Assembly (NCBI RefSeq): GCF_032118995.1
Contig: NC_092655.1
Coordinates: 14,589,223 to 14,653,222 of the forward strand
Direction of reading: 5' to 3'
Origin: Asterias amurensis
Lineage: Eukaryota
Length of the DNA: 64,000 bases
Shown piece after piece: positions 6,041 to 47,161 of this stretch. The number at the start of each line of letters is the position of its first letter. Position 1 is the stretch's first letter. The translations under genes and the position numbers were made by a program. Under the pieces are notes generated by a model. The model was given only the letters and a program-made list of their open reading frames with translations. It searched no databases and was not told the DNA's origin.

Positions 6041-6797
6041 ACTCAACTACCGCGGAATAGATTTTTCGGAATTCAATAGATTTCTCTACTACCTCGGAGT
6101 AAATTTTCCAATTCGTAAAACTCCTAAGTTCTTAGAACCTAATAAACATAACTTTGAATCCACCTTATAATGCATCTCAGTAAGCAGAGCCATGAAATTC
6201 ATCCCCGGGCTGCTTAACAGCCGAATTTGTGCTTACTGTACGCTTAACATTTCATAGCGCTGCCAACCATGTAAGCACACAAACAGTCTCCTGACGATGA
6301 CTAGAGCAAGCTAGTCGCAACGTTGAGACCAATTTCAGAACTGACTCCGCGGCAGTACAGTTAATTTCGATCCTATAAGCTAAAGTAGTAGTCCAGTCTA
6401 ATTTCTATACCATCCGCCCTGGGAATAGTTAAAAGCAGGACAGTTCTTTTCAGAACTGAGAAGTCTCCCGAACCTCCGATTATCTACTCCACGGCAGTAG
6501 GATAAAGCAAGACAGTTCCCTAAGAACAACTCTACCTGGCAAGTAGATACACACATGGTGTTACCGCAAACCAAATAAACATACGAACAAATAGGCATGC
6601 ACAAAAAAGAATGACGCAACAAATCCATGGAGAACGCGCAAAAAGGCCGCCTAATTTTCTTGCTAACCTGTGAAATACGTTTACACCGTAGCAAATTTTT
6701 CTGCTACAGTAAACACAAATTGCTTACCAGAAGCAGCCCTACGAAATTCGGCCCAGGGGCTTTCCTCAAAATTTAACCTCAACTCCTCATCACTTAC

Positions 6798-6997
6798 TTG
6801 TATGCTTGAACCAATGCCTTGGCCTCATCAAGTTGGCTGTTCATTAGGAATGCATTCAGGGGGTTGGTCACTGTGAAGAAATGTTTAGCTCGTCCCAGGT
6901 AGGTGGATTGGTCCCATTTGGGTTCGTTTAGATTCAGTCTCAGCCGAGTTGCACCTGACGCAATCTCAGACTTCAAAGCTTCATTGGAGGCAGCCAT
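6798..6997 (-). CDS. SFXN: Sideroflexin (SFXN1/3-like) first coding exon. ATG at 6997; 5'UTR and TSS further upstream are undefined.
   Basis: Minus-strand translation MAASNEALKSEIASGATRLRLNLNEPKWDQSTYLGRAKHFFTVTNPLNAFLMNSQLDEAKALVQAY(K) matches the sideroflexin N-terminus (EPRWDQSTFIGRA.HFFTVTDP.N...QLE.A). Kozak-like gcgtgATGG. Donor ACAA|GTAAGT at 6797/6798. Corresponds to ORF-track 6794..7000. Confidence 0.85.
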
Positions 6998-7039
6998 CAC
7001 GCCTGGAATGGAATTGATCAGAATAACAATAATTGGTTC

Positions 7040-7135
7040 TTATAATATAGTAGTTGCGATAACATAACCCTCCTCCCAGCCCAGGCCTGGGCAGCTGTCG
7101 GGAGGAGGGTTAGGTTATCGCAACTAATAATATAG
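7040..7135. repeat. 95 bp hairpin element in the putative SFXN promoter region; related partial copy at 8181-8240
   Basis: aatatagtagttgcgataacataaccctcctcccagc...gctgtcgggaggagggttaggttatcgcaactaataatat. Confidence 0.65.
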
Positions 7136-7244
7136 TACTTTAACACTCAGTATCACTCAGTAACAATTCCTGCAAGGTATGTGGAGTCTGGACTTGTTGT
7201 CGACTTTTAGTAGGACCGTATGTGGAGCTTTGTAATGAACAATC

Positions 7245-7610
7245 CTTTAAAGGCAGTGGACACTATTGGTAATTAAACAAAAAAATTATTGCCATAAAAC
7301 CTTACTTGGTAACAAGTTCTTATGGGGAGAGGTTGATGGTATAAAACATTGTGAGAAACTGCTCCCTCTGAAGTGCCATAGTTTTCGAGAAAGTAATTTG
7401 CCACGAATTTGATTTGAAAACCTCAGATTTAGAACTTGAGGTCTTGAAATCAACCTAACGCACACAACTTTGTTTGACAACGGTGTTTTTTTCTTTCATT
7501 ATTATCTCGCAACTTCGACGACCGGTTTGTTATGTTATGCATTATATGTTGAGATACACCAACTGTGAAGGCTAGTCTTTGACAATTACCAATAGTGTCC
7601 ACTGCGTTTA
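7245..7610 (-). mobile_element. MITE-A full-length copy, upstream of the SFXN first exon
   Basis: ctttaaaggcagtggacactattggtaatt...ttgacaattaccaatagtgtccactgcgttta. Internal hairpin aacctcagatttagaacttgaggtc. Confidence 0.8.
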
Positions 7611-8382
7611 GGCAAGAATCACGTAACGGTTTACTTTGTAAGAGTAAGGTGCAATGGTGCAATGTAATGCCGATCAGACCAGGAAAACAGGGGTGAGCGC
7701 CCCTTCTCTTTATGATAAGTGCCCTGGGAAAATCAAATGACTTTTGAGAGTGAACTTTTCAAAATATCTCAACGACAAACTTTGCTCATGAAATAGGATT
7801 GCGTTTGATTATCGAGCGGTGCCCTGTCCTTGTGGCCAACCGCCAAGGATTCGAAAATAATTGGCCCCAGTATTTACGGGCAGCTAGGTTAGCTTAATCA
7901 TGTTAGTCTTATATACTCTAACTCTATCTATCTCATCTCCATCTCCATTGGTTCAGTCAGCAAAATATCCTGCCGGATACATCTACGCTAACTCTAAGCT
8001 CAACAAGATTTGAGAAGCATTTTTACTTCAAGCTCAACAAGTGACTACAAGTTCAACTACCAAACCCTTCTGCTTATGCTGGTACTCAATTGCTCAATCG
8101 ATCGTAGGCCTACACCTACAGTAGGCCTACCAGGTCAATCAATATTCAATGCATTGCAATGCCAATGCTGTATACAAATTAGTTGCGATAATCGTAACCC
8201 TCCTCCCGACGGCCGCCAGGCCGGAGGGTTACGAGTCTCGTTCGAGCGTAAACGGTTGATCTGGTCCAACACGTACAATTTGGACAGCTAGTCACCAGAT
8301 TTGCCCCATTTTTACCACTTTTAAAAATCATGACACAAATTCTGAGGGTACTACCTTAATTCGCAATGTCTAATGCAGCCTG

Positions 8383-8925
8383 CCATAATACTCAAAACAC
8401 CATTGAGGAAATATTTCAAAGAAAAATGGACAAAAACTTCACAGGTTCAAATGTCGAACCTGCGTGGGGCGGAGCTTCGGTTGTATGTGTGGGACGTGTG
8501 GTTCAAAAGGTCGTGGCAGTGCGTGGGGTGCGTTGTGTAGCCCGGCAACTGTGCACATATGTGCGGTCCGAGGCTATTCCCACTTGCGGACTCACATCAC
8601 TACACGGGCGGACGGGATGTTATACTTATCAGCAACAACACAGTACACGTGTATGTACATATACATGGTGTACAGTACTGTGGTGCATATCATGTACATG
8701 TACAGTGCATTGTCCTATTTTATATACGGGCCCTGATGACATGTTTTTTTATTTCCTTTTTTTTTCATCTGTATTTTCATCAATTATTTATTCGTTTGTC
8801 CAGTTCCATTTGTAATCTTTTTGGATTTTATATAGTGTCTTTTTTTATTTAAGAAAGTGTTGTGAATACACCATGAATAGACCGATTGCGATACCAATGT
8901 TTACGTATGATCACGTGACCTACAG
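8383..8925 (+). repeat. Arm 1 of a ~550 bp inverted segmental duplication (partner 13085-13646)
   Basis: Near-identical reverse-complement copies (for example ccatgaatagaccgattgcgataccaatgtttacgtatgatcacgtgacctac against gtaggtcacgtgatcatacgtaaacattggtatcgcaatcggtctgttcatgg). The ORFs called in both arms (8366..8815, 13176..13604, 12998..13453) are the same GT-rich low-complexity sequence read twice. Confidence 0.8.
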
Positions 8926-11547
8926 TACCCAAAGAAAAGGACAGATACACAGCAAAGACACGGGAGGATGGGAAGACTTGTACCAATGGACAAGAAATCG
9001 GCCGTATATAGCTTTGTCTAGCTAAAAACGAAACCCTTTTTGTAAAGTTGAATGTTGTAACATAAATTTAAATCACACTTGCTGTTTTATATTTCCAGTA
9101 TTCTATTAAAAAATAGGTTTCTTTTGAGATTATAAACTACGTAAGCTACTGATGTTTGAGCAAGCTCACGCGCCGTAGATTTTGCGCTGTGCACGGCTGA
9201 ATTTGGGCTGTGCCGTGAGCGAAGTTGTCCGACTCTAGATGAAAGCTATCCCTTCTATAAAAAAAAATGAGGATTAAAATAAAGGGATTGGCAGCTTCTT
9301 CGGGAGAATTTTATTGAAAGTATTGGCAGCAAATTCTTTACAATGAGGGTAACACTTGACACCGTGTGAACATTCTCGTGGAATTTCCTAGTTGGGTGGA
9401 AAAATGTGTTTACCCATTACTGTTCAGCCACCGCGGTAAGGTCGCATGTTACAAAGCCCTGAATATTCTTCAGTGATTTTAAGAAATTACACTTTCTTAC
9501 AGGTCACGTGACGTTGCGCGCAATTGGTCTATATTATTGGTTCACTATTTATAATTTAGGCCTATTTTGTAAAGCGCCTTGAGCACAGGGGACTGTGCGC
9601 GAAATAAGTGTCCTACCAGTATTAATTATCTTCGTTGTACAACTAACAACAAGCGGGCAGAATTATTTTTACACCACGGCCAGGGTTTTGGACAACATCG
9701 CGTATTCTGTTTTGCGACAATAATACATTATACGTAAGGCCGGTCGCACATTCCCTTTGGAAGATTATTTCAAAAACTAAGGAGGGAAGGAAAGCCAGAA
9801 TTCCATCTATTTATTCAACGGTGTTATGCACACATTAATATTATTTTTTTAAAGGATAGTAGGGGCCAAGCTCGATATTAAATTCCAACATATCTGTTTA
9901 TTATAACAACCATGACGTTGGACAATAATAAAATGGCGGCTGAGTATCATGCAGAACTTGAGCTGGGACCACAGAGCTGCTTATATAACAGCTGATTTTG
10001 TGCTGTTATAAATTCCGCAATTTCCGTGCTTAATGCACTTAAGTAAATGACGGAACATAAAAATCCCGGAAAGCGTACGAATGGCCGGCCGCCTGATTTT
10101 CTTGCTAAGGGCTGTGAAACACAATTACACCGAGTACTTGAGCAAATTGTTCTGCTACAACATTAGTAGGGGGTATACTAAAACCCTGATTACAACATAA
10201 ACCCTTGTCACACTACATAGCCAATTCCCTGGAAAATAATTGAATTTGTTAAACCCACCGCCACCCCACCATTGGTTACAGGAGTACTATTGAGGAAAAA
10301 TCCCATCCCTGAGCAGGGTTAATTATTTAACAGGAATAACTTATTTCCAGGGAAATACCTATAGTGTGAAAAGGGCTTAAGTAGCACAACATTAAATTCA
10401 GCCAAGGCTGGCAGCTTGTGGGGTATGTTCAACCAACCATGTTCAACAAGGACTGCACACTTGAACGACCTTTTATTGGTGAACCTTTGATCTATTTCCG
10501 CTCAAAACAACAAAAGGTGGATGAATGGACGATACGTGTATCGCAATTCCCATGTCTGTTGTTAAACCTTTAGAGCAGTCATAATCTCTTAATTGTGGAT
10601 CTTTATAGGGGTCCCCAGTCGCCAAGACATAAAAAGCCAACCTATAAAAAACAACCTGTTACTGAGAAAAGACAGCTTAATAATAAAAGATTATTTACTT
10701 ATCAGATGCATTCGGGGTATGGTCATCCTTTTTACTCATCCTTTTTTTATGAGCCCCCATTTTAAAGGATCCGATCCAGCAAAGTGGGTCTAAATCTATA
10801 GCGAAACGCGGCGATTCTTATCACATGAGTTTTACACGTCAACATGGAAGAACGCTGCATAATTTGTAACTGAAAATTTGGCGTTGAACAAGGCAAAACT
10901 AAGAAAAGATGCTCTTTGAATCGCAATTTTGATTCTAAAATTGACGGAGCGGTGACATTCAGTCAACTCATCGATGAAGTTTTTGGTATTCAGTTTGAGC
11001 AAAAAATGGCAGGAAGATGAGGCCGAAAAAAAAAAAAAACTATATGGTTGCTATGGATGCTTGAATTGTGCTCGGAAGATGTTGGATGTCAAGATTAAAA
11101 GGAAACATCTAATGACGGCGGAGGCGAGGGTCATGAGCTTAAAGAGTGAAACAGGTTAGTTCTCATTATGTAAACATGTTATTTAAGTAATAAATAAACG
11201 AGATAGCTATTATTATACATGCCTGGAGTGTTGTTTAATTCCAGCTTTACAATTATTTAATCAAGATCAAGATATAACTGCATTGCATAAATCTGTATCC
11301 TTCGTTATTATTAAAGAACAAAATAGTTCGAAAATACTTGGCTTTTACAGACCAATATTTTGTATGAAAAAGGGTGCACATGCAACGCCAGTAAGTGAAA
11401 ACAACACATGTATAAGGCCACATGAATGTGTAACCACTTGATCATGTTGGAAAAAAAAATAATTTTTCCTAACATATAGTCAACCGTTTAATTTGTGTAA
11501 AATAGTAATTATTAAATTAATATGCTTTTCAATCACCCTCAAACTGT

Positions 11548-11850
11548 TTTAAAGCTGAAAGGTCAACTCCCGGTAATTACTGAAAATTACTGACATAGCA
11601 TAAACAATTTACTTGGTAACTAGCAATGTGGAACTGAAGATTGTATATAAAATTGTGAGAAACGGCTGTCTCTGAAGTAACGTAGCTTGCGAGAAAGAAG
11701 TAATTTTCCACAAAATTGATTTTGAGAACTCATCAGAATTAAATTTTCAGGTCTCGAAATCAAGCGTCTGAAAACAGACAACTTCGTGATACCAGGATGT
11801 TTTTTCTTCCACTATTTATTATATCGTAACTTCGACGACCAAAATGATAA
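11548..11850 (-). mobile_element. MITE-A diverged/truncated copy
   Basis: ttaaagctgaaaggtcaactcccggtaattactg...ggtctcgaaatcaagcgtctgaaaacagacaacttcgtgat...cttcgacgacc. Confidence 0.55.
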
Positions 11851-12058
11851 GACCTTTGAAAATTACAATAATTTACCAGTTTCTTAAACTGTAAAAAGTA
11901 AAATAAAATAAAAAGTTTGTATTTAGTTATAAATGACGGAAGGCAATTTATGTCAACGATTAATATTGTGACTAACCAAAAATCACCACAACAATGAACA
12001 TGAAAACAGACTGTAAAACATTTTTGCTTAAAAAAAGAGCAACTTTAAACAAACTTAC

Positions 12059-12341
12059 TTTTTACATCACCGGATGAGTTTTCCTCCATGAGGGCTACGG
12101 CTGATATTCCCATTTTCCGTAGGGACGCGACTTGATCAGCCATCAAAGCCCTCAAGGGGGAGATGACAAGTGCAACACCACCATCCTTTAAAAGTGGTGG
12201 TATTGCAAAAGTCAAAGTCTTCCCGAAGCCAGTGGGAAGAACTCCCAGAACGTGTTTTTTATTTACGATGTGTTGTACAATTCTCTCCTGTTCGTCTTTT
12301 AATTTCGAAGGCAACAAGGGATACTGTTTTTTTAACTTGTC
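12059..12341 (-). CDS. RecQ-family (superfamily 2) DNA helicase-like exon covering motifs 0, I (Walker A) and Ia. It is either an exon of an unresolved gene or a relic/pseudo-exon.
   Basis: Translation DKLKKQYPLLPSKLKDEQERIVQHIVNKKHVLGVLPTGFGKTLTFAIPPLLKDGGVALVISPLRALMADQVASLRKMGISAVALMEENSSGDVK. Compare RecQ LKKYFG..FRPGQ.EAI......D..V.MPTGGGKSLCYQLPALL..G...VVSPLISLM.DQV..L...GI.A..L. Strong donor AAA|GTAAGT at 12058/12059. In-frame TAG at 12342-12344 immediately upstream, and only weak, purine-rich acceptor candidates. Confidence 0.5.
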
Positions 12342-13084
12342 CTATGCAGCTTCCATTTTTTTTTTCGGTAACCATGCTGCAGTGACTGGAACAATAGCTG
12401 TGATTTCGTTTTGCTACATACTTGCTTGCATATCATTGCATGTAAATTTAGTTGTTTATAGTGGCTCCAAATTGATTAAAACAACCTTAGGTTGGTAGAC
12501 GTTTAACGATATTTTAAATGCCCTAAATAAACAGAGCTTCTACAACGCACTCGATCACAACCCCAATACATGTACCTGGGATGGTCAAACGAAATCACTC
12601 AAGACAAAATAAGTTTGTCAGAGATCAAGCACAGACTTTAAAAATGTCATAAATATACACAGATAAGTTTAAAATACAAGATTATATAATACAATTGTTT
12701 TAGCGGGTCATTTTCATATCTATAGACATAGAGTGAGGAAGCTTTTTTTACAAGTAAAGCGAGCACAGAAACTCAAAGGTCCTTTTTCGAAACCATGGCG
12801 TCGGCTTACGGTTCTTGCCGCAAGTTTACTATTCCTTATTTATTCTTCCGATGTACTTTTTACATTGTATTATTATTACTCACGTGCTCACGGCGCTTTA
12901 CATTTACAAAAGTAGGCCTCGATTAGAAATAAACAAACCGGCAGTTCACAACACTTTCTTTAAAAAATATTACATAAAAAAAGGGGCACTATATAAATTA
13001 CAAAAAGAACAAATTGAACTGGACAAACGAAGCAGAAATATTAATGAAAATACAAATGATAAAAACAATTATGAAATTGAAAGG

Positions 13085-13646
13085 CATGTAGGTCACGTGA
13101 TCATACGTAAACATTGGTATCGCAATCGGTCTGTTCATGGTGTATTCACAACACTTTCTTAAATAAAAAAAGACACTATATAAAATCCAAAAAAGATTGC
13201 AAATGGAACTGGACAAACGAATAAATAATTGATGAAAATACAGATGAAAAAAAAAGGAAATCAAAAGACATGTCATCAGGGCCCGTATATAAAATAGGAC
13301 AATGCACTGTACATGTACATGATATGCACCACAGTACTGTACACCATGTATATGTACACACACGTGTACTGTGTTGTTGCTGATAAGTATAACATCCCGT
13401 CCGCCCGTGTAGTGATGTGAGTCCGCAAGCGGGAATAGCCTCAGACCGCACATATGTGCACAGTTGCCGGGCTACACAAAGCACCCCACGTACTGCCACG
13501 ACCTTTTGAACCACACGTCCCACACATACAGCCGAAGCTCCGCCCCACGCAGGTTTGACATTTAAACCTGTGAATCGCTCCGATTCTGGTAAGTTTTTGT
13601 CCATTTTTCTTCGAAATATTTCCTCAATGGTGTTTTGAGTATTTTG
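13085..13646 (-). repeat. Arm 2 of the inverted segmental duplication. The adjacent segment 13647-13870 is a DIRECT copy of 7857-8180.
   Basis: 13651-13715 (ttggtcccagtatttacgggcagctaggttagcttcatcatgttagtcttatactctaac) matches 7861-7925 in the same orientation. The two duplicated blocks therefore have opposite relative orientations. Confidence 0.8.
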
Positions 13647-16094
13647 AATAATTGGTCCCAGTATTTACGGGCAGCTAGGTTAGCTTCATCATGTTAGTCT
13701 TATACTCTAACGCTCAGCTAAACAAGTTACTACAAGTTGAACTACCAAACGCTTCTGCTTATGCTGGTACTCATCTGCTCAATCGATCGTAGGCCTACGA
13801 CAGTAGGCCTACCCACGTCAATCAATTCAATGCACAATGCCAATGCTGTACAGTGTATGTATACAAAATGGTATACTAAAACTAGTCATATTTATTCACC
13901 CTATTCACAGTGTAGAACGTAGCTGTAACAAGCATAATTCAACTAATAAATAGACCAAGTTTAACAGAATCATACTCATCTTCGACGAACCTTAATAATG
14001 TTTCATTACCTGGTTAAAAGCCGGTAATTAATGTAGAATCTTTAGCAGTTGCAGTTTACGTCTTTCCACCCGGTGTTCATGTGACACTGGCAGGCGCCCT
14101 CTAGTGTCTACGTGTGGTGCATTTTCTTTACCGATGATTGGTCAATTTGGGGGTGTGTCCGTCGGGGGCACGTCGCGACCCCCCCCCCCCCCCCCCGGAC
14201 AGCCCGCATTTCTGTTAGCCGCTCATTTTGTGGGAAAGTTTGGGGTGTTTTGGGCCACAGAACTCTGGGTGAATAAGCTAGCAATTCACGGCGGCTGGCT
14301 AAACCAGTTCATTTATGTGTTTCGTGCGCAAGCGAAGTTTATCAGGTAAATATATTTAACTTTAGAATCACCCTGTAATTAATATTGACAGACTATGGGA
14401 ACTTAATGTTGAAAACTTTTTTTGTGACGTTTGTGTATAATCAAGATAAACTCTCGCTAGAATTCCAATCATTGTTGGTCCTCGAGTATAAAATGAGGAG
14501 GGGGGGGGGGCGTGATTAAGCTAGGTTGTTCTTGTTTTGTCTACCACCAGAAACACCACCCCCACGGATGGAGCAGTACTATACAAAAGTGCAAATTCCC
14601 AATAGGAAATACACAATCTGAAAACCGTTACTGCGGTAACGTTTCTCATTTTCAAAATTGTGGGGTATGAAAAATATATTTGAACAGAACCACATTACTT
14701 TGAAGTAAAAATGTTTCTCAAAATGATTTGCGGATACTATCTAAAGCTGGTATAGGCTTCGATGCAATAGTTTGTATTGCCAAAACTTCAACAGGTTTGT
14801 CAGTTTACGCACATGTATGGATTACATACATCGCATCTGGTATATCATTTATATTTATTAATATTAATATTTATCTGGTTTATGTTTATTTAAAAGTGCA
14901 GTTTTCAAAAGAGTCTTAAGTTTCTCAAATGTATGCTTAGCAGAATCCATCCAAATTCCCGAGTCACTACATGTTATGCACCATGTGCCGCGACTGGTAT
15001 CCTAGGTCTGCAATTAGCAGGGGGTAATTATAAGCAATACTTTCTGCTAAAGCAGCTATATGAAGTAAAGCCAATTAGACCCTATTGCATAGACTACCAT
15101 TGCTGAGGGAGGAGGGGGGGGGGGTCGATTTAGGATTGTGACACACAGAGCTCACTTGGGCAGTGGGACCTTCAAATTAAAGGTACAGTACACAAAGTTT
15201 AAAAAGAAAACAAAAATCGTATTTATTACTTGACAAAGATTAAGGATAACAATTAATAAACTTTACTAAAACTGCCTGTGACAAAATGTCTGCGGACATA
15301 CAATACAATTACAGGCAATAATCAAATTTGGTCATTATGGTTTTTAAACTGGCTTTAATATTTTTCTTTTAAATATCTATTGTACACTGTTCTTATTAAT
15401 TTGGTTTGGCAGAGTAGGCCTACATGGTAGTCTGAAATACATGCTGATAACAGGTAAGGGGAAAATGACAATGTTAAAGTGTTTTTGCTAACTATAAACC
15501 ACAGGTAATTTTAAACACTTCCCACATCATTTGAATCAGTTACTTTTTTAAAGATGATACAATTATACAGGTACAACTAAAAAGACACAGAGCTCATTTG
15601 GGCAGTGGGACCTTCACAGGTATACAAAATTCAACAACAAAGACATGACAAGAGCTAAACGACGATGATCACTCACCCTCTCGTGGTGACGCCATGCACC
15701 TAGTGCCAGCCAAGTGACCTACTCGACAAGCAGGGCACTTGGGACTGACCCGTGAGTGAGCCCCGGGAATGACGTCAAAGCTATTCGAACTTGCACCGGG
15801 GGAAGACCGGGGTCGACCCAGGGAAGCTAATCGAACGCACACTGATCGCTTGTTGCATGTATAAGGCAATACAAAATATCAGTCATCGCAGTACGTAGAC
15901 TCGCTACACTGCTTTGAGCAGGTTCTTCCTAAGAATTGCTTGTGTTTGCTGACATTATGGTGACTATTGTACAACGAACGTTTCACAATGTGTTATTCTT
16001 CGGCCCAGTCTAATCCAGCGTGTAAGGACAAAAACTTGCTACTTAGCATAATACTGCTGAGCCAAATGCCAGTGAAAATTGCCAGTGAAAATTC

Positions 16095-16570
16095 CATTAG
16101 AGTTCGGTGGTGCCGGTGTGGATGCAATTGTGTCCGCCATGCAATAGTGTCTGCTCCGGACACTTGCATATGCAATCGTGTCCGGGGCAATGTAAAAACC
16201 GTCCGGCGGACATGTACATGACATGCAGCTGTGCATGCACTGAACCTACAAGCAGCATGTATATTCACGTATTTTATGATTGCAGCGAATACCCAACGAC
16301 CGAACATTTCCCATGTCATTCATGACATGCACTTAGCTTGTAAAATACATGGCGAACGTGTTTCGTCGACCAAGGGCGTTTAATTTACTGCAAGGACGGC
16401 TTGCACGGGGGCGGACACAACTGCATATGCAAATGTGTCCGGGCGGACACAATTGTATTATGCAGCAGCGTCCGGGCGGACACAATTGCATATGCAAAAC
16501 CGTCCGGCGGACATTATTGCATATGCAATAATGTCCTCTGGATAGTATTGCATAGAGGACATGATTGCAT
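16095..16570. repeat. Minisatellite of ~30-35 bp units with a palindromic TTGCATATGCAA core and GTCCGGGCGGACAC motif
   Basis: Tandem array: cggacacaattgcatatgcaaatgtgtccgggcggacacaattgtattatgcagcagcgtccgggcggacacaattgcatatgcaaaaccgtccggcggacattattgcatatgcaataatgtcc. Diverged units begin at 16095. Confidence 0.7.
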
Positions 16571-17105
16571 GCGACACCGGCCCCACTACATTTTTTGCTT
16601 AACGCAAGACATTTTTTCAAGCAGTAATTTTTGCTTGAAATCGGGCGGTGTTCAACTGTGAATTCTCTGTTTTCGTTCAGCATACCCTTTGTTTTGTTTA
16701 AAAGCTCAACTTTATATAATGATACTTTATTTGGCAATTCATTGGAAGTATGCTAGTCCCTACTGCTTTTTGTGCCACTGCACTTGGCCCCACCCCCTCA
16801 AATGTTAATATGCCTGAAGCAAAACTACACTCCCTGCAAAAACTGTGGTGTTAAAATTGACTCTGTTGGTGTTGTCACATTATAAATTCAGACAAAAAGA
16901 AAACACTAATGTCTGCCAACTCTATTGCATAACTGTTGTTTATAAAAAAAAAAAAGTTTGGTGTTAGTTTTAAATATTTTTTATGTGACAACACCCATTG
17001 TGTCAATAACACACAAGAGACGACCAGAGTCTGCTCAAAACGCCGAGACCACACCGGTGATGTGTCTCAGGGAATTCTGTCACCAGAAGATTCTGTCCCC
17101 CATAG

Positions 17106-17484
17106 TGGTGCGTTCGTTTAGCTTCCCTGGGTCGACCCCGATGTTGCGTATTTTATTTTTTTCCAGGACGAACGTGGGCACACAATTACCCCACGTTCGT
17201 CCTCGAACCAGAAAAAAAAACCCAGACACGTCACCACGTGAGCCTTCCCGTGGTGACGTCAGTGCACCTCGGGCCAGCCCCAAGTGACCCAATCCACAAG
17301 TGGGGCTCTTGGGGCTGGCCCGAGGTGCACTGACGTCACCACAGGAAGGCTCACGTGGTGACGTGTCTGGGTTTTTTCCTGGTTCGAGGACGAACGTGGG
17401 GTAATTGTGTGTCCACGTTCGTCCTGGAAAAAAATATAATACGCAATATCGGGGTCGACCCAGGGAAGCTAAACGAACGCACCC
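17106..17484. mobile_element. ~380 bp near-perfect palindrome ('PAL-E'), a hairpin/foldback MITE
   Basis: ggtgcgttcgtttagcttccctgggtcgaccccg...ccaagtgacccaatccacaagtggggctcttgg...cggggtcgacccagggaagctaaacgaacgcaccc. Short 150 bp version at 39901-40052; half copy at 15687-15845. Confidence 0.75.
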
Positions 17485-18276
17485 AAAATTATTGGAAACT
17501 GAGGATGATTCAAAAGAGGGCGCTATCAGAAGAAGTTCGTACACACAGTTTCGGGGATTCAGAATTTCCTGCCACACCGGCTGTTTTCAGAACACTCTCC
17601 CGCAAAATATATTTACAGCTGTCCCCGCAAGCTTACTATTTGTTTATAGTTTTTTCCTAAACCATGCAAAACTTCAAACAATACTTACACAAGTTTTTGA
17701 AGTTTGTAGGCCTATAAAACATAGGTAAAAGAACTCACTCATAGCCTCGGTTATGTTCAAGGACAAAAAACCCGTAAGTAAAGATGTCTCCTCGACAAAC
17801 TCTCGCTCGTACCCCCCTTCGGGAGCTTGTTACGAGCTGCAATTAGTTGACCGAACGTGTCACAGCCGTGCAATTTCACAATCACGTATACCCTTGCGGC
17901 TACTCGACATACGCGTACATCATGATGGAATCAAGGTGAGCAAAGCTACACAAAAGTAACCCCGCCGGGTTCATTCAAAGATGATGCGACGATGGACTCG
18001 TAATCACAGATCAACAAAGATGCGGGTGGGATGTGGATGAACTCAACGAGGACTAGAAGGCGACGGGGGAGGTTATTTCTGGTATATTATGAAGCTACAA
18101 AAACCACGAGGGAGTTTAAGTCATTGTCAGTCCATCCAAATCTGTTTTTTCCACGCAATTATACTCAAGGACCAATATTGTGATTGGAATTCTTACTAGC
18201 AAGATGCGTTATTAGCGGAAGGGGCGTTAGACCCAAATTATTGGAATAAATCAATTGTGTGGGATGGGGAGTCCTC

Positions 18277-18620
18277 TTAAAAGGCACGGGCCACTATTGT
18301 TAATTACTCAAAATAATTGTTAGCATATCAACTTATTTGGTAACGAGCAATGGAGAGCTGTTGGTAATATAACATATTGTGAGAAACGGCTCCCTCTGAT
18401 GTAACGCAGTTTTCGAGAAAGAAGTAATTTTCCACCAACATATTTGAATTTGATCTTGAGACATCAGACAAAATTTTTACTTTTTTACTTAGACTATTAT
18501 CTCGCAACTTTGACAACCGAGTGAGATGTTCACAGGTTTGTTATGTTATGCATATGTTGAGATACACAAAGTGAGAAGACTGGTCTTTGATAATTACCAA
18601 AGGTGTCCAGTGTCTTTAAT
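18277..18620 (-). mobile_element. MITE-A copy
   Basis: ttaaaaggcacgggccactattgttaattactcaaaataattg...tgataattaccaaaggtgtccagtgtctttaa. Confidence 0.75.
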
Positions 18621-22529: not shown

Positions 22530-22901
22530 TTAAAGCCATTATACACTTTCGGTAAACAGTATTGTCCAAGTCCCACACTTCGTGTATCACAACTTATATA
22601 TAAAATAACAATCCTGTGGAAATTTAGGCTCAATCGGACATCGGAGTCGGGAGAAAATAACGGGAAAACCCACTCCTGTTTTCGCGCGTTTCGCCGTGTC
22701 ATGACATGTGTTTATAACAAATCCGTAATTCTCGTTAACGAGAATTTATATTGTTTTACCGTTTTCTTAAAAAGTAAAGCATTTCATGGACTAATATTTC
22801 AAGAGAAGTCTTTCACCATTACCTTCTGTAAACCCTGTAAATTATTTGTAAATCTGTGAACTTTTTTTTTTTTCTGTACCGAAAGGGTCCAATGGCTTTA
22901 A
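22530..22901 (+). mobile_element. MITE-B copy (~375 bp), TIR ttaaagccattatacactttcggtaaacag / ctgtaccgaaagggtccaatggctttaa
   Basis: Shares an internal core with MITE-A (cacttcgtgtatcacaacttatatataaaataacaa.cctgtg.aaatttaggctcaatcgg.catcggagtcgggagaaaataa). Other copies at 26743-27119 (-), 42470-42844 (-) and 47162-47497 (+). Confidence 0.75.
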
Positions 22902-23181
22902 GCCAATGGAACACCCAGTTCAAACATCTTGAATTTATACATGTGCTTCGTGGAGCTAGCTTGGAGGAGCGAACATCATGCATAGTTCAAGTAGTGCACT
23001 CTGCAGAAGGTCCCTGTCCAAACAAAGCAGTGTCGTTAATTTTAATCATATTTCGACCAATCTTTTTGCGACCTGTAATGAAAATTATTAGGAAAAAACA
23101 CACACCATGACTGTCGGTCGGACGGACGAGGACAACCAATTATTGTTATTTTGACCTGTATAAGCTGCCAAAAGCACTACT

Positions 23182-25915: not shown

Positions 25916-26742
25916 ATAAACATCACTTTCAAATTAGCATTGTAGAGACTATGAACAACTAAAAGAGAGAGAATCACTGATTACAGAAGAATAGCAACAT
26001 GGCTATTGTCTTATCTGACACAACGATGGCGTCACCACTATTATTAGTTCACAATGAGAGATCCATTAATTACCCAAAGAATGTTCCGCGTCATTAGGTA
26101 CCAGAGGGGATTTGAACAAAACTAGTATTTCATCGACTACACCAGTATTTCAGACAGGAATGGTTCTTTGGGCAATGGTAGGCCAACTGGTTTAAATGTT
26201 AAAACCAATAGATTTTCAGATATTTTGATGATTTACCACATATCGAATAATACAAAATATTGTATTTCGAATAATATCATAAGAGGGCGCTATGGACCAT
26301 GTGTATAGACCTTACCGCAAATACTCTGTACGCGCACAATATACGTGGAATGAGGTACATGCTGGTCGAGCTAGCTATCAAATTTGATCACTAGCTAGAC
26401 CAGCATGCACCTCATTCGACAGTTTGCGCTTGCGCAATGGTATTTGCTAAAAGGCCTATGGGACTGACGACAAACCAGGGCGTCAACATAACGGCCACCA
26501 ATTACACGTGGATCGATAGGCGGTATCAATTAATACGAACACGGTTTATAACTCACTACAGAAGTCAGATTCAGGGTCTGGAACAATCTATCATTTGAAA
26601 TGAATGGTGTAGTTATGGCAAATGGGTGTCAATTTCAAAGAGCCTCTGGGAACGGTATAAGACACAGACGAGAGAAGCGGTCTAGCTACAGCCGCACAAT
26701 TAAGCAGGTAATAATGTAACCGAGCCCGTGGGCAGGGCACAT

Positions 26743-27119
26743 TAAAGCCATTATACACTTTCGGCACAGACAAAAAAAAAGTTCACGGATTTACAAATAA
26801 CTTACAGGGTTTACAAAAGGTATTGGTGAAAGACTTATCTTGAAATATTATTCAATGAAATGCTTTACTTTCCGAGAAAACATTAAAACAATTATCAATC
26901 CTCGTTGTAGAGAATTACGGATTTATTTTAAACACATGTCATGACACGGCTATATAAACGTGCGGAAACAAGGGTGGGTTTTCCCTGTTATTTTCTCCCG
27001 ACTCCGATGACCGATTGAGCCTAAATTTTCACAGGTTTGTTATTTGATATAGAAGATGTGATACACGAAGTGTGGGGCCTTGGACAATACTGTTTACCGA
27101 AAGTGTCCAATGGCTTTAA
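26743..27119 (-). mobile_element. MITE-B copy
   Basis: ttaaagccattatacactttcggcacagac...ctgtttaccgaaagtgtccaatggctttaa. Confidence 0.75.
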
Positions 27120-28710: not shown

Positions 28711-29736
28711 ATGGATTGCATGGATACAGCCTCGGATAGTTTCTCCACCAATTGTTCTTTGGAGAATTGCACAGAAGAGGAGACTACGAAGTCGGTGACA
28801 CAAATTCGAGATTGGGTGGCGGGAATTTTTCTTCTAATCGTCTGCATAACGGGTCTGATTGGCAACAGCATGGTCATCTTTGTGGTGCTACGCTACGCCA
28901 AAATGAAAACCGTCACCAATTTGTACATCTTGAATCTGGCCATAGCCGATGACCTGTTCATGATCGCCCTTGTGTTTTTGTCTATTGCTACCCTGGCGGG
29001 TAACAATTGGATATTCGGCCCCGTTCTGTGCCATGTGGTCTACGCAATTGACGGTCTCAACCAGTTTACCAGCGTGTTTTGCCTGACCGCCATGAGCATG
29101 GATCGCTACGTCGCCGTATGCCACGCTCGAAGGGTCCGCGGGTATCGGACTCTTCGCCTGGCAATCTGCGTGAACTTCGGCGTATGGTTCCTAGCCCTTG
29201 CCGCTGCCAGCCCGATGAATATAGTGACACGGTACACCGTTTACAACGGTACACCAGTGTGTTATTTCAATTTCGAGTCTGTATTCGGTAAAGACGCCGT
29301 CGTCATAACTCAGAAACTGTTCATGATTTACACGACTTTGATGGGACTTGTGATTCCTTTAGTCATCATTTCCGTGTGCTATTCGAGCATTGTGGTGCGC
29401 CTCAAGAAATTAGGAACCCGCACGGGAAAGATGAAGAAATCTCGAAAGGTAAACCGTGTAGTGTTTTTTGTAGTGCTCGCCTTCTTCATGTGTTGGTGGC
29501 CGTTTTATGTATGGCGAACTATAGTGGTGTTTGTACCGTGCCTTGCGCAACAGTGGTTCAATGGCCTCGTACTTGACTTTACAATGTGTTTGGGTTACCT
29601 AAACAGCTGTGCAAATCCACTCCTCTACGGATTCCTTAGCGGGAACTTCAAAAAGAGTTTCCGTAAAGTGTGGAACTGTACACAGGAAACGGAGATACAA
29701 AACGGTCGACGCCGTGCTCCGGCCCAGCCTATGTAA
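28711..29736 (+). CDS. Intronless class-A (rhodopsin-like) GPCR of the somatostatin / allatostatin-C receptor type, 341 aa from the first ATG.
   Basis: Single uninterrupted ORF with seven predicted hydrophobic TM segments. N-terminal N-glycosylation sites (NCS, NCT). TM2 NLYILNLAIADDLFM (SSTR: NIYILNLAIADELFM). DRY motif MSMDRYVAVCH. TM6 FMCWWPFY. TM7/helix 8 NSCANPLLYGFLSGNFKKSF (SSTR: [20 protein letters not shown]). The ORF-track start at 28621 is a GTG; the first in-frame ATG is 28711. Stop TAA at 29734-29736. Confidence 0.85.
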   Translation: MDCMDTASDSFSTNCSLENCTEEETTKSVTQIRDWVAGIFLLIVCITGLIGNSMVIFVVLRYAKMKTVTNLYILNLAIADDLFMIALVFLSIATLAGNNWIFGPVLCHVVYAIDGLNQFTSVFCLTAMSMDRYVAVCHARRVRGYRTLRLAICVNFGVWFLALAAASPMNIVTRYTVYNGTPVCYFNFESVFGKDAVVITQKLFMIYTTLMGLVIPLVIISVCYSSIVVRLKKLGTRTGKMKKSRKVNRVVFFVVLAFFMCWWPFYVWRTIVVFVPCLAQQWFNGLVLDFTMCLGYLNSCANPLLYGFLSGNFKKSFRKVWNCTQETEIQNGRRRAPAQPM

Positions 29737-30168: not shown

Positions 30169-30556
30169 TTAAAGGCAGTGGACACTATTGGTAATTGTCA
30201 AAGACTAGCCTTCACAGTTGGTGTATCTCAACATATGCATAAAATAACAAACCTGTGCAAATTTGAGCTCAATCGGACATCGAACTTGCGAGATAATAAT
30301 GAAAGAAAAAAAACACCTATGTCACACGAAGTTGTGTGCGTTTAGATGGTTGATTTCGAGACCTCAAGTTCTAAATCTGAGGTCTTGAAATCAAGTTCGT
30401 GGAAAATTACTTCTTTCTCGAAAACTATGGCACTTCAGAGGGAGCCGTTTCTCACAATGTTTTATACCACCAACCTCTCCCCATTACTTGTCACCAAGAA
30501 AGGTTGTATGCCAATAATTATTTTGAGTAATTACCAATTATGTCCACTGCCTTTAA
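30169..30556 (+). mobile_element. MITE-A full-length copy ~430 bp downstream of the GPCR stop
   Basis: ttaaaggcagtggacactattggtaattgtcaaagactagccttcacagttggtgtatctcaacatatgcataaaataacaaacctgtg...gagtaattaccaattatgtccactgcctttaa. Confidence 0.8.
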
Positions 30557-31586: not shown

Positions 31587-31975
31587 TTAAAGACAGTGGA
31601 CACTATTGGTAATTACTCAAATTAATTATTAGCATAAAACCTTACTTGGTAACGATTAATAGGGAGAGGTTGATAGTATAAAACATTGTGAGAAACGGCT
31701 CCCTCTGAAGTGACGTTGTCTTCGAGAAAGAAGTAATTTTCAACGAATTTGATTTAGAGACCTCAGTATTAGATTTTGAGGTCTCGAAATCAAGCATCTG
31801 AAAGCACAAAACTTCGTGTGACAAGGGTGTTTTTTTCTTCCATTATTATCTCGCAACTTCGACGACCAATTGAGCTCAAATTTTCACAGGTTTGTAATTT
31901 TATGTATCTGTTGAGATACACCAAGTGTTAGAAGACTGGTCTTTGACAATTACCAATGGTGTCCAGTGTCTTTAA
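31587..31975 (-). mobile_element. MITE-A full-length copy
   Basis: ctttaaagacagtggacactattggtaattactcaaattaat...ttgacaattaccaatggtgtccagtgtctttaa. Confidence 0.8.
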
Positions 31976-36715: not shown

Positions 36716-37104
36716 TTTAAAGACAGTGGACACTATTGGTAATTGTCAAAAAACAGTCTTCTCACTTGGTGTATCTCAACCAATGCATAAAATTAAAAAC
36801 CTGTGAAAATTTGAGCTTGATTGGTCGTCAGAGTTGCCAGATAACTATGAAAGAAAAAAAACACCTATGTCACACGAAGTTGTGTGCGTTTAGATGGTTG
36901 ATTTCGAGACCTCAAGTTCTAAACTTGAGGTCTCGAAATCAAATTCGTGGAAAATTACTTCATTCTCCTGAACTAGGTCACTTCAGAGGGAGCTGTTTCT
37001 CACAATGTTTTATACCATCAACCTCTCCCCATTACTCGTTACCAAGTAAGGTTTTATGCTAATAAATATTTTGAGTAATTACCAATAGTGTCCACTGCCT
37101 TTAA
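36716..37104 (+). mobile_element. MITE-A full-length copy
   Basis: ctttaaagacagtggacactattggtaattgtcaaaaaacag...gatttcgagacctcaagttctaaacttgaggtctcgaaatc...gagtaattaccaatagtgtccactgcctttaa. Confidence 0.8.
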
Positions 37105-37463
37105 ATATCTGTGTTTAAACTTTAAAATCAACGGGTATGAGCTGGTGATGTATACAGCATTCGAAATTTCAAAGACAAGTAATATTATTTCACCAAATTG
37201 GATAATACCATCAAGGGTTTCAAGTAACACGTTCCCTTGGAAACTGAACGACCCGGGAATTCTTAAAAACGAGAAACCATTACAGACGGCGTATCGTGTT
37301 TAATCAATCCGAAGGTTTACGGAGTTTGTATGGTAATAAACTAATCATTACAAAGATTGTGAAGGACGTTGTTGGAGAATTTTAATATAAATCACCTTTT
37401 ACATAAATATTACACCAAAGTAGATGCTTGCGTTTTCATCACTGCATAGGTCAAGCCTTATTC

Positions 37464-42064: not shown

Positions 42065-42469
42065 CCATGTGAAAGGGATCACTTTATTATCAGTAACCTA
42101 TATAGCAAAACTAGGTTGCTTAAAACCGACGAGCGGCTCTGGATCCAATAAAAATAAATAAATAAAGGGCAGGGACAAGACAACGCTAGAAAGCAGCATG
42201 GCAATTAATGAAATTCGAACAGAGAAAACAAGAAATGGGACAATTTGTTCGTGAAATTACAGTTAGAATGTATGGAAGCAGGTAAAGATGGGAAAAACGA
42301 AATCTCAAAAGACGCAGCGGGTGAGATTGAATTAAACTTAATATGGATCTAAAAAGCCATACAAGTGGGTCAGATAAACGTTTGTGTTCAAAAAGAGGCA
42401 GAGCAGTCAGGGATATTTGCCGTCCCCTGTGCAAATATAAAGTTTGTTCCGTCCAACGCGGCAAAGGTC

Positions 42470-42844
42470 TTAAAGCCATTATACACTTTCGGTACAGAAT
42501 TTTTGTTTAAAGTTCACAGATTTACAAATAATTTACAGGGTTTACAGAAGGTAATAGTGAAAGACTTATCTTGAATAATTATTCCATGAAATGCTTTACT
42601 TTTTGAGAAAACATTAAAACAATATCAATTCTCGATAGCGAGAATTACGGATTTATTTTAAACACATTTCATGACACGGCGAAACGTGGGGAAACAAGGG
42701 TGGGTTTTCCCGTTGTTTTCTCCCGACTCTGATGACCGATTGAGCCTAAATTTTCACAGGTTTGTCATTTTATATATAAGTTGTGATACACGGAGTGTGG
42801 GCCTTGGACAATACTGTTTACCGAAAGTGTCCAATGGCTTTAAA
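42470..42844 (-). mobile_element. MITE-B copy
   Basis: ttaaagccattatacactttcggtacagaattt...ctgtttaccgaaagtgtccaatggctttaa. Confidence 0.75.
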
Positions 42845-45606: not shown

Positions 45607-46004
45607 ACGAGTTGGCCTTTATACTATTGGTAATTACTCAAAATAATTGTCAGCATCAAAACTTATTCGGTAACGAGCAATGGAGAGCCGTCGATATTAT
45701 AAAACATTGCGAGAACGGCCATCTCTGAAGTAACGTAGTTTTTGAGAAAGTAAATAATTTATCACTGAAATATTTGATTTGAATTCGAGACCTCAGCTGG
45801 GGTCTCGAATTCAAAGGCATCCGATGAAAGCACACAATTTGTGCGCCAAGGGTGTTTTTTCCATTCATTATTCTCTCACAACTTCTGTTACGACAAATTG
45901 AGTTATAAATTTCCAGGGTTTGTTATTTTATGCATATATATGTTGAGAACACAAAGTGAGAAGCCTGGTCTTTTACTATTACCAAAGGTGTCCAGTGTCT
46001 TTAA
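45607..46004 (-). mobile_element. MITE-A copy, head-to-head with the next copy and sharing its terminal TTAA
   Basis: ggcctttatactattggtaattactcaaaataattgtcagc...ttactattaccaaaggtgtccagtgtctTTAA. Confidence 0.75.
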
Positions 46005-46389
46005 AGGCAGTGGACACTATTGGTAGTTGTCAAAGACTAGTCTTCACAGTTGGTGTATCTCAACATATATGCATAAAACAATTAACCTGTGAAAATTTGA
46101 GCTCAATCGGTCATCAAACTTGCGAGATAATAATGAAAGAAAAATAACCCTTGCAACACGAAGTTGTGTGCGTTTAGATGGTTGATTTCGAGACCTCAAG
46201 TTCTAAACTTGTGGTCTCGAAATCAAATTCGTGGAAAATTACTTCTTTCTCGAAAACTATGGCACTTCAGAGGGAGCCGTTTCTCACAATGTTTTATACC
46301 ATCAACCTCTCCCCATTAACTCGTCACCAAGAAAGGTTTTATGCTAATAATTATTTTGAGTAATTACCAATAGTGTCCACTGCCTTTAA
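46001..46389 (+). mobile_element. MITE-A full-length copy, head-to-head with the previous copy
   Basis: TTAAaggcagtggacactattggtagttgtcaaagactagtcttcacagttgg...gatttcgagacctcaagttctaaacttgtggtctcgaaatc...gagtaattaccaatagtgtccactgcctttaa. Confidence 0.8.
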
Positions 46390-47161
46390 CAATATATAAT
46401 TTTTGTATACTTACATGCGCTTTTGATTTTGTTACCTTTCTATTTTCTAAAATATTTTCTTATCTGGAATTATTTTCAAAAAAGAGTATGGAGCAAACGT
46501 CATATTGAATTTAACTGAAATTTTTAATTATCATTCAGTCTGCAAGATTTAGGTCTTTAGTGAAATCAATAAAACGTGCTCATTTCCGGAAGAAAATAAA
46601 TCCCCAAAGCAATGCGCGACGTCCGTCACGATCTGAATGCATGGGTTTTTTGTTGATTGAGTAAAGGCTGGCTCGGAATCGGAGGAGCGGCCGGATATAA
46701 GCGCGGTCTTGACTTCCGACGCAGTCACGGCATATCCTTTTCTTTCACATTCAATCTGGGTTTTGACCTTGCCGCCACAAATAGAGCTTAACTAAAATGT
46801 CCTATACTCCACCTCGGATGATTTTGCCTTGCCAATCTCACGGATGATGGCGAACAACCCTAGGATGGTTTGGTCTTTAACCAGGAATGTCTGGATGTAC
46901 CTGTTCTTCCATGCCTAATCAGTTTGGTTGTGGCCATGAGTTGAAGTGATCCTGTTCACACGTTCTCCTGGCGACTACTTCAGCTCATTTTATGTTCTCC
47001 ATCCCTATCCCAATCTGTCTATAGCATGAGAAGGTCATGTCTCTTTAACAAAATAAAACATGCCTGCATTTCTTTAAGATTGTTGAAATGTGACAAATCC
47101 TCTCACAAGACAAAGAGAACTGCATAATGTTTACAAAAAAGAGAACTGCATTATTATTGTC

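What the first reader, a model, noticed from the sequence alone, without database searches (positions are those of the whole stretch)
12059..12344. Orphan RecQ-helicase exon with intact motifs 0/I/Ia, an upstream in-frame stop and no recognisable neighbouring exons
86 codons encode an unmistakable RecQ-type N-terminal helicase core (LPTGFGKTL Walker A; VISPLRALMADQV motif Ia), uninterrupted by stops and ending in a strong donor (AAA|GTAAGT). Immediately 5' on the same strand is an in-frame TAG, and the only AG acceptor candidates lack a polypyrimidine tract. No minus-strand ORF of 60 aa or more exists for about 4.4 kb downstream (7662-12045). The exon sits in the 4.2 kb spacer between ~550 bp inverted duplicated arms (8383-8925 / 13085-13646). 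The options are: (a) one exon of a RecQ paralogue with very short or unusual flanking exons; (b) a recently pseudogenised fragment relocated by the duplication/inversion event; (c) a captured host-gene fragment inside a large decayed foldback-type transposon.
Basis: partly seen in the sequence, partly recalled or inferred. Interest (0 to 1): 0.55.

Follow-up and report, generated by a model that had tools for sequence, protein, structure and literature searches.

The report
Dead RecQ-like helicase first-exon fragment
This is a leftover first exon of a RecQ-like helicase gene in the starfish Asterias amurensis: it carries an early stop codon, has no other exons nearby and is missing from the same site in the sister species, so it is an ordinary dead gene fragment.

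Summary
Minus strand 12356..12059 encodes RecQ motifs 0, I and Ia (Pfam DEAD 5e-15; best solved relative E. coli RecQ). It is the first coding exon of a RecQ-like family found in marine invertebrates. The family's start ATG is at 12356-12354. The "upstream in-frame TAG" (12344-12342) is codon 5 and replaces a conserved Tyr/Phe, so it is a nonsense mutation. The GTAAGT donor (phase 1) matches the intron position in three homologues.

No other RecQ exon exists anywhere in the 64 kb (RecQ-core HMM on six frames: exon E=2.6e-35, next best E=9). The next gene on the same strand, sideroflexin-1-like, starts only 5 kb downstream.

An exact protein match identifies the window as Asterias amurensis. 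At the orthologous A. rubens site, window 7865-13647 is absent. That stretch holds both inverted arms, the exon and a second copy of a ~200-bp flank. The arms differ by 2.6% in substitutions, against 4-11% between the species.

No transposase domain, target-site duplication or extra copy was found. An AcademH transposon helicase matches only at the Walker A motif.

Verdict: a truncated, non-processed, lineage-specific pseudogene fragment. Transposon cargo is not excluded. Low interest.

The parts
12059..12356 (-). Remnant of the first coding exon of a RecQ-like helicase: ATG, four codons, TAG, then 94 open codons carrying motifs 0, I (LPTGFGKT) and Ia (VISPLRALMADQV)
12354..12356 (-). Start codon ATG, aligned with the start Met of homologues (MANGY.. 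/ MEGY..)
12342..12344 (-). TAG at codon 5, in the alignment column where 7 of 12 homologues have Tyr and 3 have Phe (TAT in L001 and L002). A single-base nonsense change.
12052..12058 (-). Intact 5' splice donor GTAAGTT after exon base 12059 (phase 1). Intron position and phase match L001, L002 and L003.
8925..12051 (-). Intron-like remainder downstream of the exon. It has no coding similarity and contains one copy of the window's common ~380-bp interspersed repeat (11572-11842).
8384..8924 (.). Left arm of the inverted duplication
13087..13646 (.). Right arm of the inverted duplication: 14 substitutions in 541 aligned bases against the left arm, plus 19 gap columns
7857..8178 (.). Left copy of the ~200-bp direct repeat 'A', interrupted by a ~100-bp insertion, continuous with the downstream flank
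13648..13850 (.). Right copy of direct repeat 'A', continuous with the upstream flank. A. rubens has only one copy of A.
7865..13647 (.). 5.8-kb block present in A. amurensis and absent at the orthologous A. rubens site (arms, exon and one A copy)
6794..7000 (-). Context: first coding exon of sideroflexin-1-like, the next gene downstream on the same strand. Further exons lie at 4871-4701, 3281-3183, 2687-2616 and 928-719.

Best explanation
The feature is a truncated, non-processed pseudogene: a DNA-level copy of only the 5' end (start codon, first coding exon, splice donor and some intron) of a RecQ-like helicase gene. The gene belongs to a family found in many marine invertebrates.

The fragment lies between two ~550-bp inverted repeats in a 5.8-kb block, 5 kb upstream of the sideroflexin-1-like gene of Asterias amurensis. 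A. rubens lacks the block at the same site.

The fragment cannot make a helicase. It lacks motifs II-VI and every C-terminal domain, and its frame is closed at codon 5 by a Tyr-to-stop change.

Shown here: the exon's identity, its solitude, the nonsense codon, the conserved intron position, and presence in one species versus absence in the other.

Inferred: that the fragment arrived in a structural rearrangement (an insertion with an inverted duplication), probably after the two Asterias species split, and has drifted neutrally since.
For: **Identity.** Pfam DEAD 5.1e-15. Best solved relatives are RecQ helicases. RecQ-core HMM 119.6 bits.

**First exon with a nonsense codon.** The ATG at 12356-12354 aligns with the homologues' start Met. 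The TAG aligns with Tyr in 7 of 12 homologues and Phe in 3 of 12. The Tyr codon is TAT in L001 and L002.

**Not a retrocopy.** The GTAAGT donor is kept and is followed by non-coding sequence. Its phase-1 position matches L001, L002 and L003.

**Family members elsewhere have the missing exons.**
- L003 has exons 2-4 within 1.6 kb.
- L007 has them within 0.7 kb.
- L006 has its DEVH exon 8.4 kb downstream.

**The exon is alone in this window.**
- HMM on six frames of all 64 kb: next best E=9.3.
- tblastn with 153 homologues: best other hit E=0.021.
- tblastn with 116 family queries, including their own exons 2-4: best other hit E=0.056.
- The recurrent weak hit at 54839-54907 scores below zero with both HMMs.
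- Pfam on all six frames of 7001-16000 finds only this DEAD match.

**The space downstream is taken.** Sideroflexin exons run from 7000 to the window start on the same strand.

**Species comparison.**
- The window's somatostatin-receptor protein is an exact match to an A. amurensis protein.
- A. rubens joins the counterpart of 14178-13648 to that of 7864-7302.
- tblastn of the exon against 50 kb of A. rubens finds nothing at E<=10.
- The unique parts of the block have no match there.
- The arms differ by 2.6%, against 4.3-11% between the species.

**Annotation.** No annotated Asterias protein matches the exon. The best hit anywhere is 63-67% identical and comes from an unidentified contig.
Against: - No parent copy was found, and I could not search the A. 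amurensis genome.
- Whether A. amurensis gained the block or A. rubens lost it is unresolved. The two A copies differ by 6.7% (13 of 195), and the A. rubens copy is closer to the left copy (95.9%) than to the right (92.3%). That would also fit an older duplication later removed in A. rubens by recombination between the A copies.
- A family member has an 8.4-kb first intron, so a very distant exon 2 beyond the window start cannot be formally excluded.
- Apart from the one stop, the exon shows no decay. It scores higher against the RecQ HMM than its intact relatives.
- The TAG could be a sequencing error or a polymorphism.
- 2.8 kb of A. rubens between L008 and L009 was not examined.
Confidence: 0.75

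Rival explanations
1. The 5.3-kb unit bounded by the ~550-bp inverted arms is a decayed long-TIR (foldback-like) transposon. It either captured the 5' end of a host RecQ-like gene or descends from an element that carried its own RecQ-related helicase, as AcademH and KolobokH do.
For: - Long, young inverted termini (97.4% identical in substitutions) enclose the exon.
- The block is present in one species and absent in the sister species.
- The family is mostly annotated as fragments in many invertebrate genomes.
- One Saccoglossus member is fused to a THAP domain.
- A. rubens carries an unrelated 112-bp palindromic insertion at the very same junction, which hints at a preferred insertion site.
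- DNA transposons with RecQ-related helicases exist in animals, including echinoderms (PMC7165386).
Against: - There is no target-site duplication at the arm ends.
- The ~200-bp flanking direct repeat is far longer than any transposase-made duplication.
- 205 bp of unrelated sequence sits between the left arm and the repeat.
- No transposase, integrase or reverse-transcriptase domain appears in six frames of 7001-16000.
- No second copy of the arms or spacer exists in the 64-kb window or in 50 kb of A. rubens.
- The AcademH-1_CVi helicase matches the exon family only at Walker A: 9.9 bits, against 80-157 bits for true members.
- Four loci carrying family members share no flanking ORFs.
Confidence: 0.15
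2. It is the live first exon of a functional multi-exon RecQ-like gene whose remaining exons lie more than 12 kb away, beyond the window start, with the sideroflexin gene nested in its first intron.
For: - The exon has intact motifs and an intact donor.
- A relative has an 8.4-kb first intron.
- The exon shows no decay other than the TAG.
Against: - The stop at codon 5 has no downstream in-frame ATG before motif Ia.
- The exon is absent at the A. rubens orthologous site.
- No annotated Asterias protein contains it.
- The whole sideroflexin gene (more than 7 kb, same strand) would have to sit inside intron 1.
Confidence: 0.04
3. The fragment has been taken up as a non-coding piece of the sideroflexin transcription unit, for example an alternative 5'-UTR exon with a 4-codon upstream ORF that uses the retained donor.
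For: - It lies on the same strand, 5 kb upstream of the sideroflexin first coding exon.
- That exon begins at a good acceptor (ttccattccag|GC) five bases before the ATG, read from the sequence. So at least one upstream UTR exon must exist.
- A. amurensis has two accessions for the same sideroflexin protein.
Against: I had no expression data. A. rubens runs the same gene without the block. The idea is purely positional.
Confidence: 0.04

Closest known systems
'ATP-dependent DNA helicase RecQ-like' predicted genes of marine invertebrates (Saccostrea, Magallana, Dreissena, Haliotis, Saccoglossus, Ptychodera, Porites) and their unnamed relatives in metagenome contigs
   Same: They share the N-terminal layout: Met, then a conserved Tyr/Phe a few residues in, L-K-x-E-Q, VLPTGFGKS/T and ISPLxALMxxQV. 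The phase-1 intron just after motif Ia is also shared. Identity over the exon is 40-67%.
   Different: The window copy has only exon 1 and a stop at codon 5. Relatives such as L003, L006 and L007 continue into DExH and later motifs.
Bacterial RecQ and the five canonical animal RecQ helicases (RECQL, BLM, WRN, RECQL4, RECQL5)
   Same: Motifs 0, I and Ia of the RecQ helicase core. E. coli RecQ scores E=4.5e-11 and human RECQ1 2.2e-9.
   Different: It is not an orthologue of any canonical animal paralogue. Bacterial RecQ scores best, while WRN, RECQ5, BLM and RECQ4 score E=2.6e-8 to 3e-6. Motifs II-VI and the Zn/RQC/HRDC regions are absent from the locus.
Non-processed (duplicated, truncated) pseudogenes and gene fragments left by segmental rearrangement
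   Same: Genomic structure is retained (splice donor and intron sequence). Only part of the gene was copied. There is a disabling mutation, the fragment is not conserved in the sister species, and it sits next to duplicated and inverted flanks.
   Different: The parent locus has not been identified.
AcademH and KolobokH DNA transposons, which encode RecQ-related superfamily II helicases (Kojima 2020, PMC7165386)
   Same: A helicase gene with introns, found in animal genomes including echinoderms, inside a unit with inverted termini.
   Different: The AcademH-1_CVi helicase shares only the Walker A stretch with this exon family. There are no 9-10-bp target-site duplications and no transposase gene on the opposite strand. 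No KolobokH sequence was available for comparison.

Membership tests
RecQ helicase (superfamily II), as a complete gene | Motif 0 (conserved Gln), motif I Walker A (PTGxGKS/T) and motif Ia (SPLxxLMxDQ) | tested here: met
   LKDEQ, LPTGFGKT and VISPLRALMADQV are present. Pfam DEAD 5.1e-15, RecQ HMM positions 14-96 at 119.6 bits.
RecQ helicase (superfamily II), as a complete gene | Motif II (DExH), motifs III-VI and the RecQ C-terminal region encoded at the same locus | tested here: not met
   HMM on six frames of 64 kb: next best E=9.3. tblastn with 153 and with 116 queries finds nothing below E=0.02. Pfam on six frames of 7001-16000 finds only the exon.
RecQ helicase (superfamily II), as a complete gene | Open reading frame from the start codon | tested here: not met
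   TAG at codon 5 (12344-12342), at a conserved Tyr/Phe position.
Invertebrate 'RecQ-like' family (exon-1 type) | Start Met, then an aromatic residue at about position 4-5, then the LKxEQ...VLPTGFGKS...ISPLxALM block, 40% or more identical to members | tested here: met
   61%, 49%, 40% and 44% identity to P0001, P0006, P0013 and P0010. There are 11 invariant columns, and only the aromatic codon is replaced by a stop.
Invertebrate 'RecQ-like' family (exon-1 type) | Phase-1 intron about 10-15 codons after motif Ia | tested here: met
   A|GTAAGT in the window, A|GTAAGA in L001, C|GTAAGT in L002 and L003.
Canonical animal RecQ paralogues (RECQL, BLM, WRN, RECQL4, RECQL5) | Closest similarity to one of the five paralogues | tested here: not met
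   Bacterial RecQ ranks above all five in the solved-structure search, and no annotated Asterias protein matches closely.
Processed pseudogene (retrocopy) | Exons fused without introns, a poly(A) tract and short flanking duplications | tested here: not met
   The splice donor is retained and is followed by non-coding sequence. No exon-2 sequence is fused on.
Long-TIR / foldback-type DNA transposon | Long terminal inverted repeats | tested here: met
   Arms 8384-8924 and 13087-13646, 2.6% substitution divergence.
Long-TIR / foldback-type DNA transposon | Short target-site duplication directly flanking the termini | tested here: not met
   The left flank reads ...GCCTGCC and the right flank AATAATTGG..., with no shared bases.
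Long-TIR / foldback-type DNA transposon | Several copies in the genome | tested here: inconclusive
   No further copy in the 64-kb window or in 50 kb of A. rubens. The whole genome was not searchable.
AcademH transposon | Helicase similar to AcademH helicases | tested here: not met
   The exon-family HMM against the AcademH-1_CVi helicase region gives 9.9 bits, Walker A only, and tblastn gives 36% over 25 aa. Only one representative was tested, and its sequence came from machine-read PDF text with some errors.
AcademH transposon | Transposase gene on the opposite strand, TIRs and 9-10-bp target-site duplications | tested here: not met
   No protein domain on the plus strand of 7001-16000 and no duplication at the arm ends. 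Pfam may lack an Academ transposase model.
KolobokH transposon | Helicase similar to KolobokH helicases, plus a Kolobok transposase | not testable with these tools
   No KolobokH sequence was available; the family is only mentioned in PMC7165386.

The most novel reading that the evidence does not exclude
The inverted-repeat-bounded 5.3-kb unit is a copy of an undescribed mobile element of sea stars that carries, or recently captured, a bacterial-type RecQ-like helicase gene. It would have been active after Asterias amurensis and A. rubens diverged. The fragmentary 'RecQ-like' genes scattered through many marine invertebrate genomes would then reflect a selfish, mobile helicase family distinct from AcademH.
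Probability: 0.08. Interest if true: 0.45.

Novelty: new member of a known kind. Interest (0 to 1): 0.15.

Why it matters
It matters little beyond annotation. The exon should be recorded as a truncated pseudogene fragment and not used as evidence for an extra RecQ paralogue in Asterias amurensis.

The locus is a tidy example of how a structural rearrangement can drop a single intact-looking exon next to an unrelated gene. It also shows that one sister-species comparison plus a family alignment can settle such cases.

A side point may deserve a separate look. The RecQ-like family it comes from is more similar to bacterial RecQ than to the five canonical animal paralogues. It is widespread in marine invertebrates, mostly annotated as fragments, and once fused to a THAP domain.

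Tried and rejected
- **More RecQ exons in the window.** tblastn with 153 homologues, tblastn with 116 family queries including their own exons 2-4, and a 525-position RecQ-core HMM on six frames all found nothing. A recurrent weak hit at 54839-54907 was checked and is chance.
- **Transposon proteins around the exon.** Pfam on all six frames of 7001-16000 found none.
- **RNA genes.** Rfam on 7000-15000 and ARAGORN on the whole window found none.
- **Subrepeats in the arms.** Tandem Repeats Finder found nothing relevant.
- **Conserved neighbours of family members.** tblastx among L001, L003, L006 and L007 found no shared flanking ORFs. L001 shares only the exon with the window.
- **A parent or near-identical copy in the protein collections.** None turned up; the best hit is 63-67% identical and of unknown origin. 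The exon ORF itself is not in the collection.
- **The A. amurensis annotation around the exon.** The look-up of the A. amurensis sideroflexin protein was not on record.
- **An outgroup to decide insertion versus deletion.** The only extra contig (L010) stops 710 bp upstream of the sideroflexin ATG, short of the junction.
- **Helitron capture.** I considered it from the junction sequence and rejected it. The 5' junction is not A|TC, and a Helitron would not explain the duplicated 200-bp flank.
- **Literature.** Two searches for descriptions of this RecQ-like family found nothing useful.

Full report
**Observation.** The minus strand of 12356..12059 reads MEAA*DKLKKQYPLLPSKLKDEQERIVQHIVNKKHVLGVLPTGFGKTLTFAIPPLLKDGGVALVISPLRALMADQVASLRKMGISAVALMEENSSGDVK and is followed by GTAAGT. 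Pfam places it in the DEAD/DEAH helicase family (E=5.1e-15). All 37 best matches among solved structures are RecQ helicases:

| Solved structure | E-value |
|---|---|
| E. coli RecQ | 4.5e-11 |
| human RECQ1 | 2.2e-9 |
| WRN | 2.6e-8 |
| RECQ5 | 2e-6 |
| BLM | 2.4e-6 |
| RECQ4 | 3.3e-6 |

The inverted arms are real: 8384-8924 and 13087-13646. No start-codon ORF of 60 aa or more lies on the minus strand between 7662 and 12045. I count 94 open codons between the TAG and the donor, not 86.

**What the exon is.** An exhaustive profile search found the closest relatives to be short gene calls on eukaryotic contigs. All begin and end at about the same places as this exon. Named members are 'ATP-dependent DNA helicase RecQ-like' proteins of oysters, Dreissena, Haliotis, Saccoglossus, Ptychodera and Porites.

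In the alignment, the ATG at 12356-12354 lines up with the homologues' start Met. The TAG at 12344-12342 falls in a column where 7 of 12 homologues have Tyr and 3 have Phe. The Tyr codon is TAT in L001 and L002. So the "upstream in-frame stop" is a one-base nonsense change in codon 5 of the family's first coding exon. No acceptor site is needed.

The donor is phase 1, at the same position as in L001, L002 and L003. Because the donor and intron-like sequence are retained, this is a genomic copy and not a retrocopy.

**Family members elsewhere carry the missing exons.**
- L003 has the DEVH, motif III and later exons within 1.6 kb.
- L007 has them within 0.7 kb.
- L006 has its DEVH exon 8.4 kb downstream.

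**The exon is alone in this window.** I built a 525-position HMM from 43 full-length RecQ proteins and ran it against every open stretch of all six frames of the 64 kb.
- It finds the exon at E=2.6e-35; the next best is E=9.3.
- tblastn with 153 homologues gives nothing better than E=0.021 elsewhere.
- tblastn with 116 family queries, including their own exons 2-4, gives nothing better than E=0.056.
- A recurrent weak hit at 54839-54907 has negative HMM scores.
- Pfam on all six frames of 7001-16000 finds only this DEAD match.

Downstream on the same strand, the sideroflexin-1-like gene begins at 7000. Its exons lie at 7000-6794, 4871-4701, 3281-3183, 2687-2616 and 928-719. That leaves only 5 kb for any further RecQ exons.

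**Species and orthologous site.** The single-exon receptor gene at 28711-29736 is an exact match to somatostatin receptor type 2-like of Asterias amurensis. I fetched the A. rubens regions around the orthologous receptor (L008) and sideroflexin (L009) genes. They are colinear with the window:

| A. rubens (L009) | Window |
|---|---|
| 7480-8355 | 15645-14769 |
| 8382-8912 | 14178-13648 |
| 9025-9604 | 7864-7302 |
| 9947-10411 | 7051-6587 |

 Window 7865-13647 therefore has no counterpart at this site.

That block holds both inverted arms, the RecQ exon and a second copy of a ~200-bp sequence 'A' (13850-13648 and 8178-7857). A. rubens has only one copy of A. tblastn of the exon against the 50 kb of A. 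rubens finds nothing. The block matches A. rubens only through a common interspersed repeat. In the gene tables returned for these two A. rubens loci, the only called genes are the sideroflexin and the receptor themselves. No annotated Asterias protein matches the exon.

**Age.** Substitution-only divergence between the species is 4.3-11%, and 7.8-11% in the immediate flanks. The two arms differ by 2.6%. This suggests that the inverted duplication post-dates the species split.

The two A copies differ by 6.7% (13 of 195). The A. rubens copy is nearer the left copy (95.9%) than the right (92.3%). I therefore cannot tell an insertion in A. amurensis from a deletion in A. rubens by recombination between the A copies. 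Either way the block is dispensable.

**Transposon tests.**
- The arm ends have no target-site duplication.
- 205 bp of unrelated sequence separates the left arm from the A copy.
- No transposase-type domain is present.
- No other copy exists in the sequence available.

Two transposon lineages with RecQ-related helicases are known, AcademH and KolobokH (PMC7165386). I took the AcademH-1_CVi consensus from that paper's supplement. Its helicase matches the exon-family profile only at Walker A (9.9 bits). KolobokH could not be tested. Loci carrying family members share no flanking ORFs. A THAP fusion in one Saccoglossus member keeps a link to mobile DNA conceivable.

**Conclusion.** The most likely reading (about 0.75) is a truncated, non-processed pseudogene fragment. 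The 5' end of a RecQ-like gene was placed upstream of sideroflexin by a rearrangement that also made the inverted and direct duplications. It was unable to encode a helicase from the start and now also carries a nonsense codon.

The rivals are cargo or remnant of a long-TIR transposon (about 0.15), a live gene with a very distant exon 2 (about 0.04) and reuse as a sideroflexin 5'-UTR exon (about 0.04).

The kind of feature is well known, and the interest is low.

**Limits.**
- I could not search the whole genome or any expression data.
- No outgroup was available.
- 2.8 kb of A. rubens between the two fetched loci was not seen.
- The AcademH comparison used one representative, read by machine from a PDF.

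Noticed in passing
window 28711-29736 (+): Single-exon rhodopsin-type receptor gene (Pfam 7tm_1, 2.7e-58). It is an exact match to somatostatin receptor type 2-like XP_071793466.1 of Asterias amurensis, which identifies the source organism.
   Followed up: yes
window 7000-6794, 4871-4701, 3281-3183, 2687-2616, 928-719 (-): Five exons of sideroflexin-1-like, running off the window start. The first coding exon starts at a good splice acceptor five bases before its ATG, so an unlocated 5'-UTR exon must lie upstream, possibly beyond the RecQ block.
   Followed up: partly
window 7245-7610, 11572-11842, 30169-30556, 31587-31975, 36716-37105, 46001-46389, 52124-52507 and about 20 more: An abundant ~380-390-bp interspersed repeat, 65-93% identical between copies and also common in A. 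rubens. ARAGORN finds no tRNA-like part, and I did not classify it.
   Followed up: partly
window 22530-22902, 26742-27119, 42469-42844, 47153-47504: A second interspersed repeat family of ~375 bp, seen through its matches to A. rubens L008 8205-8579 and 11250-11623.
   Followed up: no
window 7041-7134 and 8178-8222; L009 8913-9024: Small palindromic, MITE-like insertions differ between the two Asterias species. A ~100-bp GC-rich hairpin sits just upstream of sideroflexin exon 1 in A. amurensis only, with a related piece at the left edge of the block. A. rubens has an unrelated 112-bp palindrome inserted exactly at the junction where A. amurensis has the 5.8-kb block.
   Followed up: partly
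window 14179-14768 and 15646-18315 versus L009 1-7479: The intergenic region upstream of the block is heavily remodelled between the two species. Several kb on each side are unalignable, so this interval is structurally unstable in general.
   Followed up: no
L001 1975-3039 (+): On the contig of the closest homologue, about 7 kb upstream of its RecQ-like exon and on the same strand, lies a 354-aa ORF. It has a RING finger and a match to the RAG1 importin-binding region that passes Pfam's cut-off (24.9 bits against 23.3).
   Followed up: no
proteins P0125, P0005, P0007, P0008, P0009: One Saccoglossus family member is a THAP-domain fusion (P0125). Several database relatives contain the same N-terminal helicase segment two to nine times in tandem; these are probably assembly or gene-model artefacts.
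   Followed up: no
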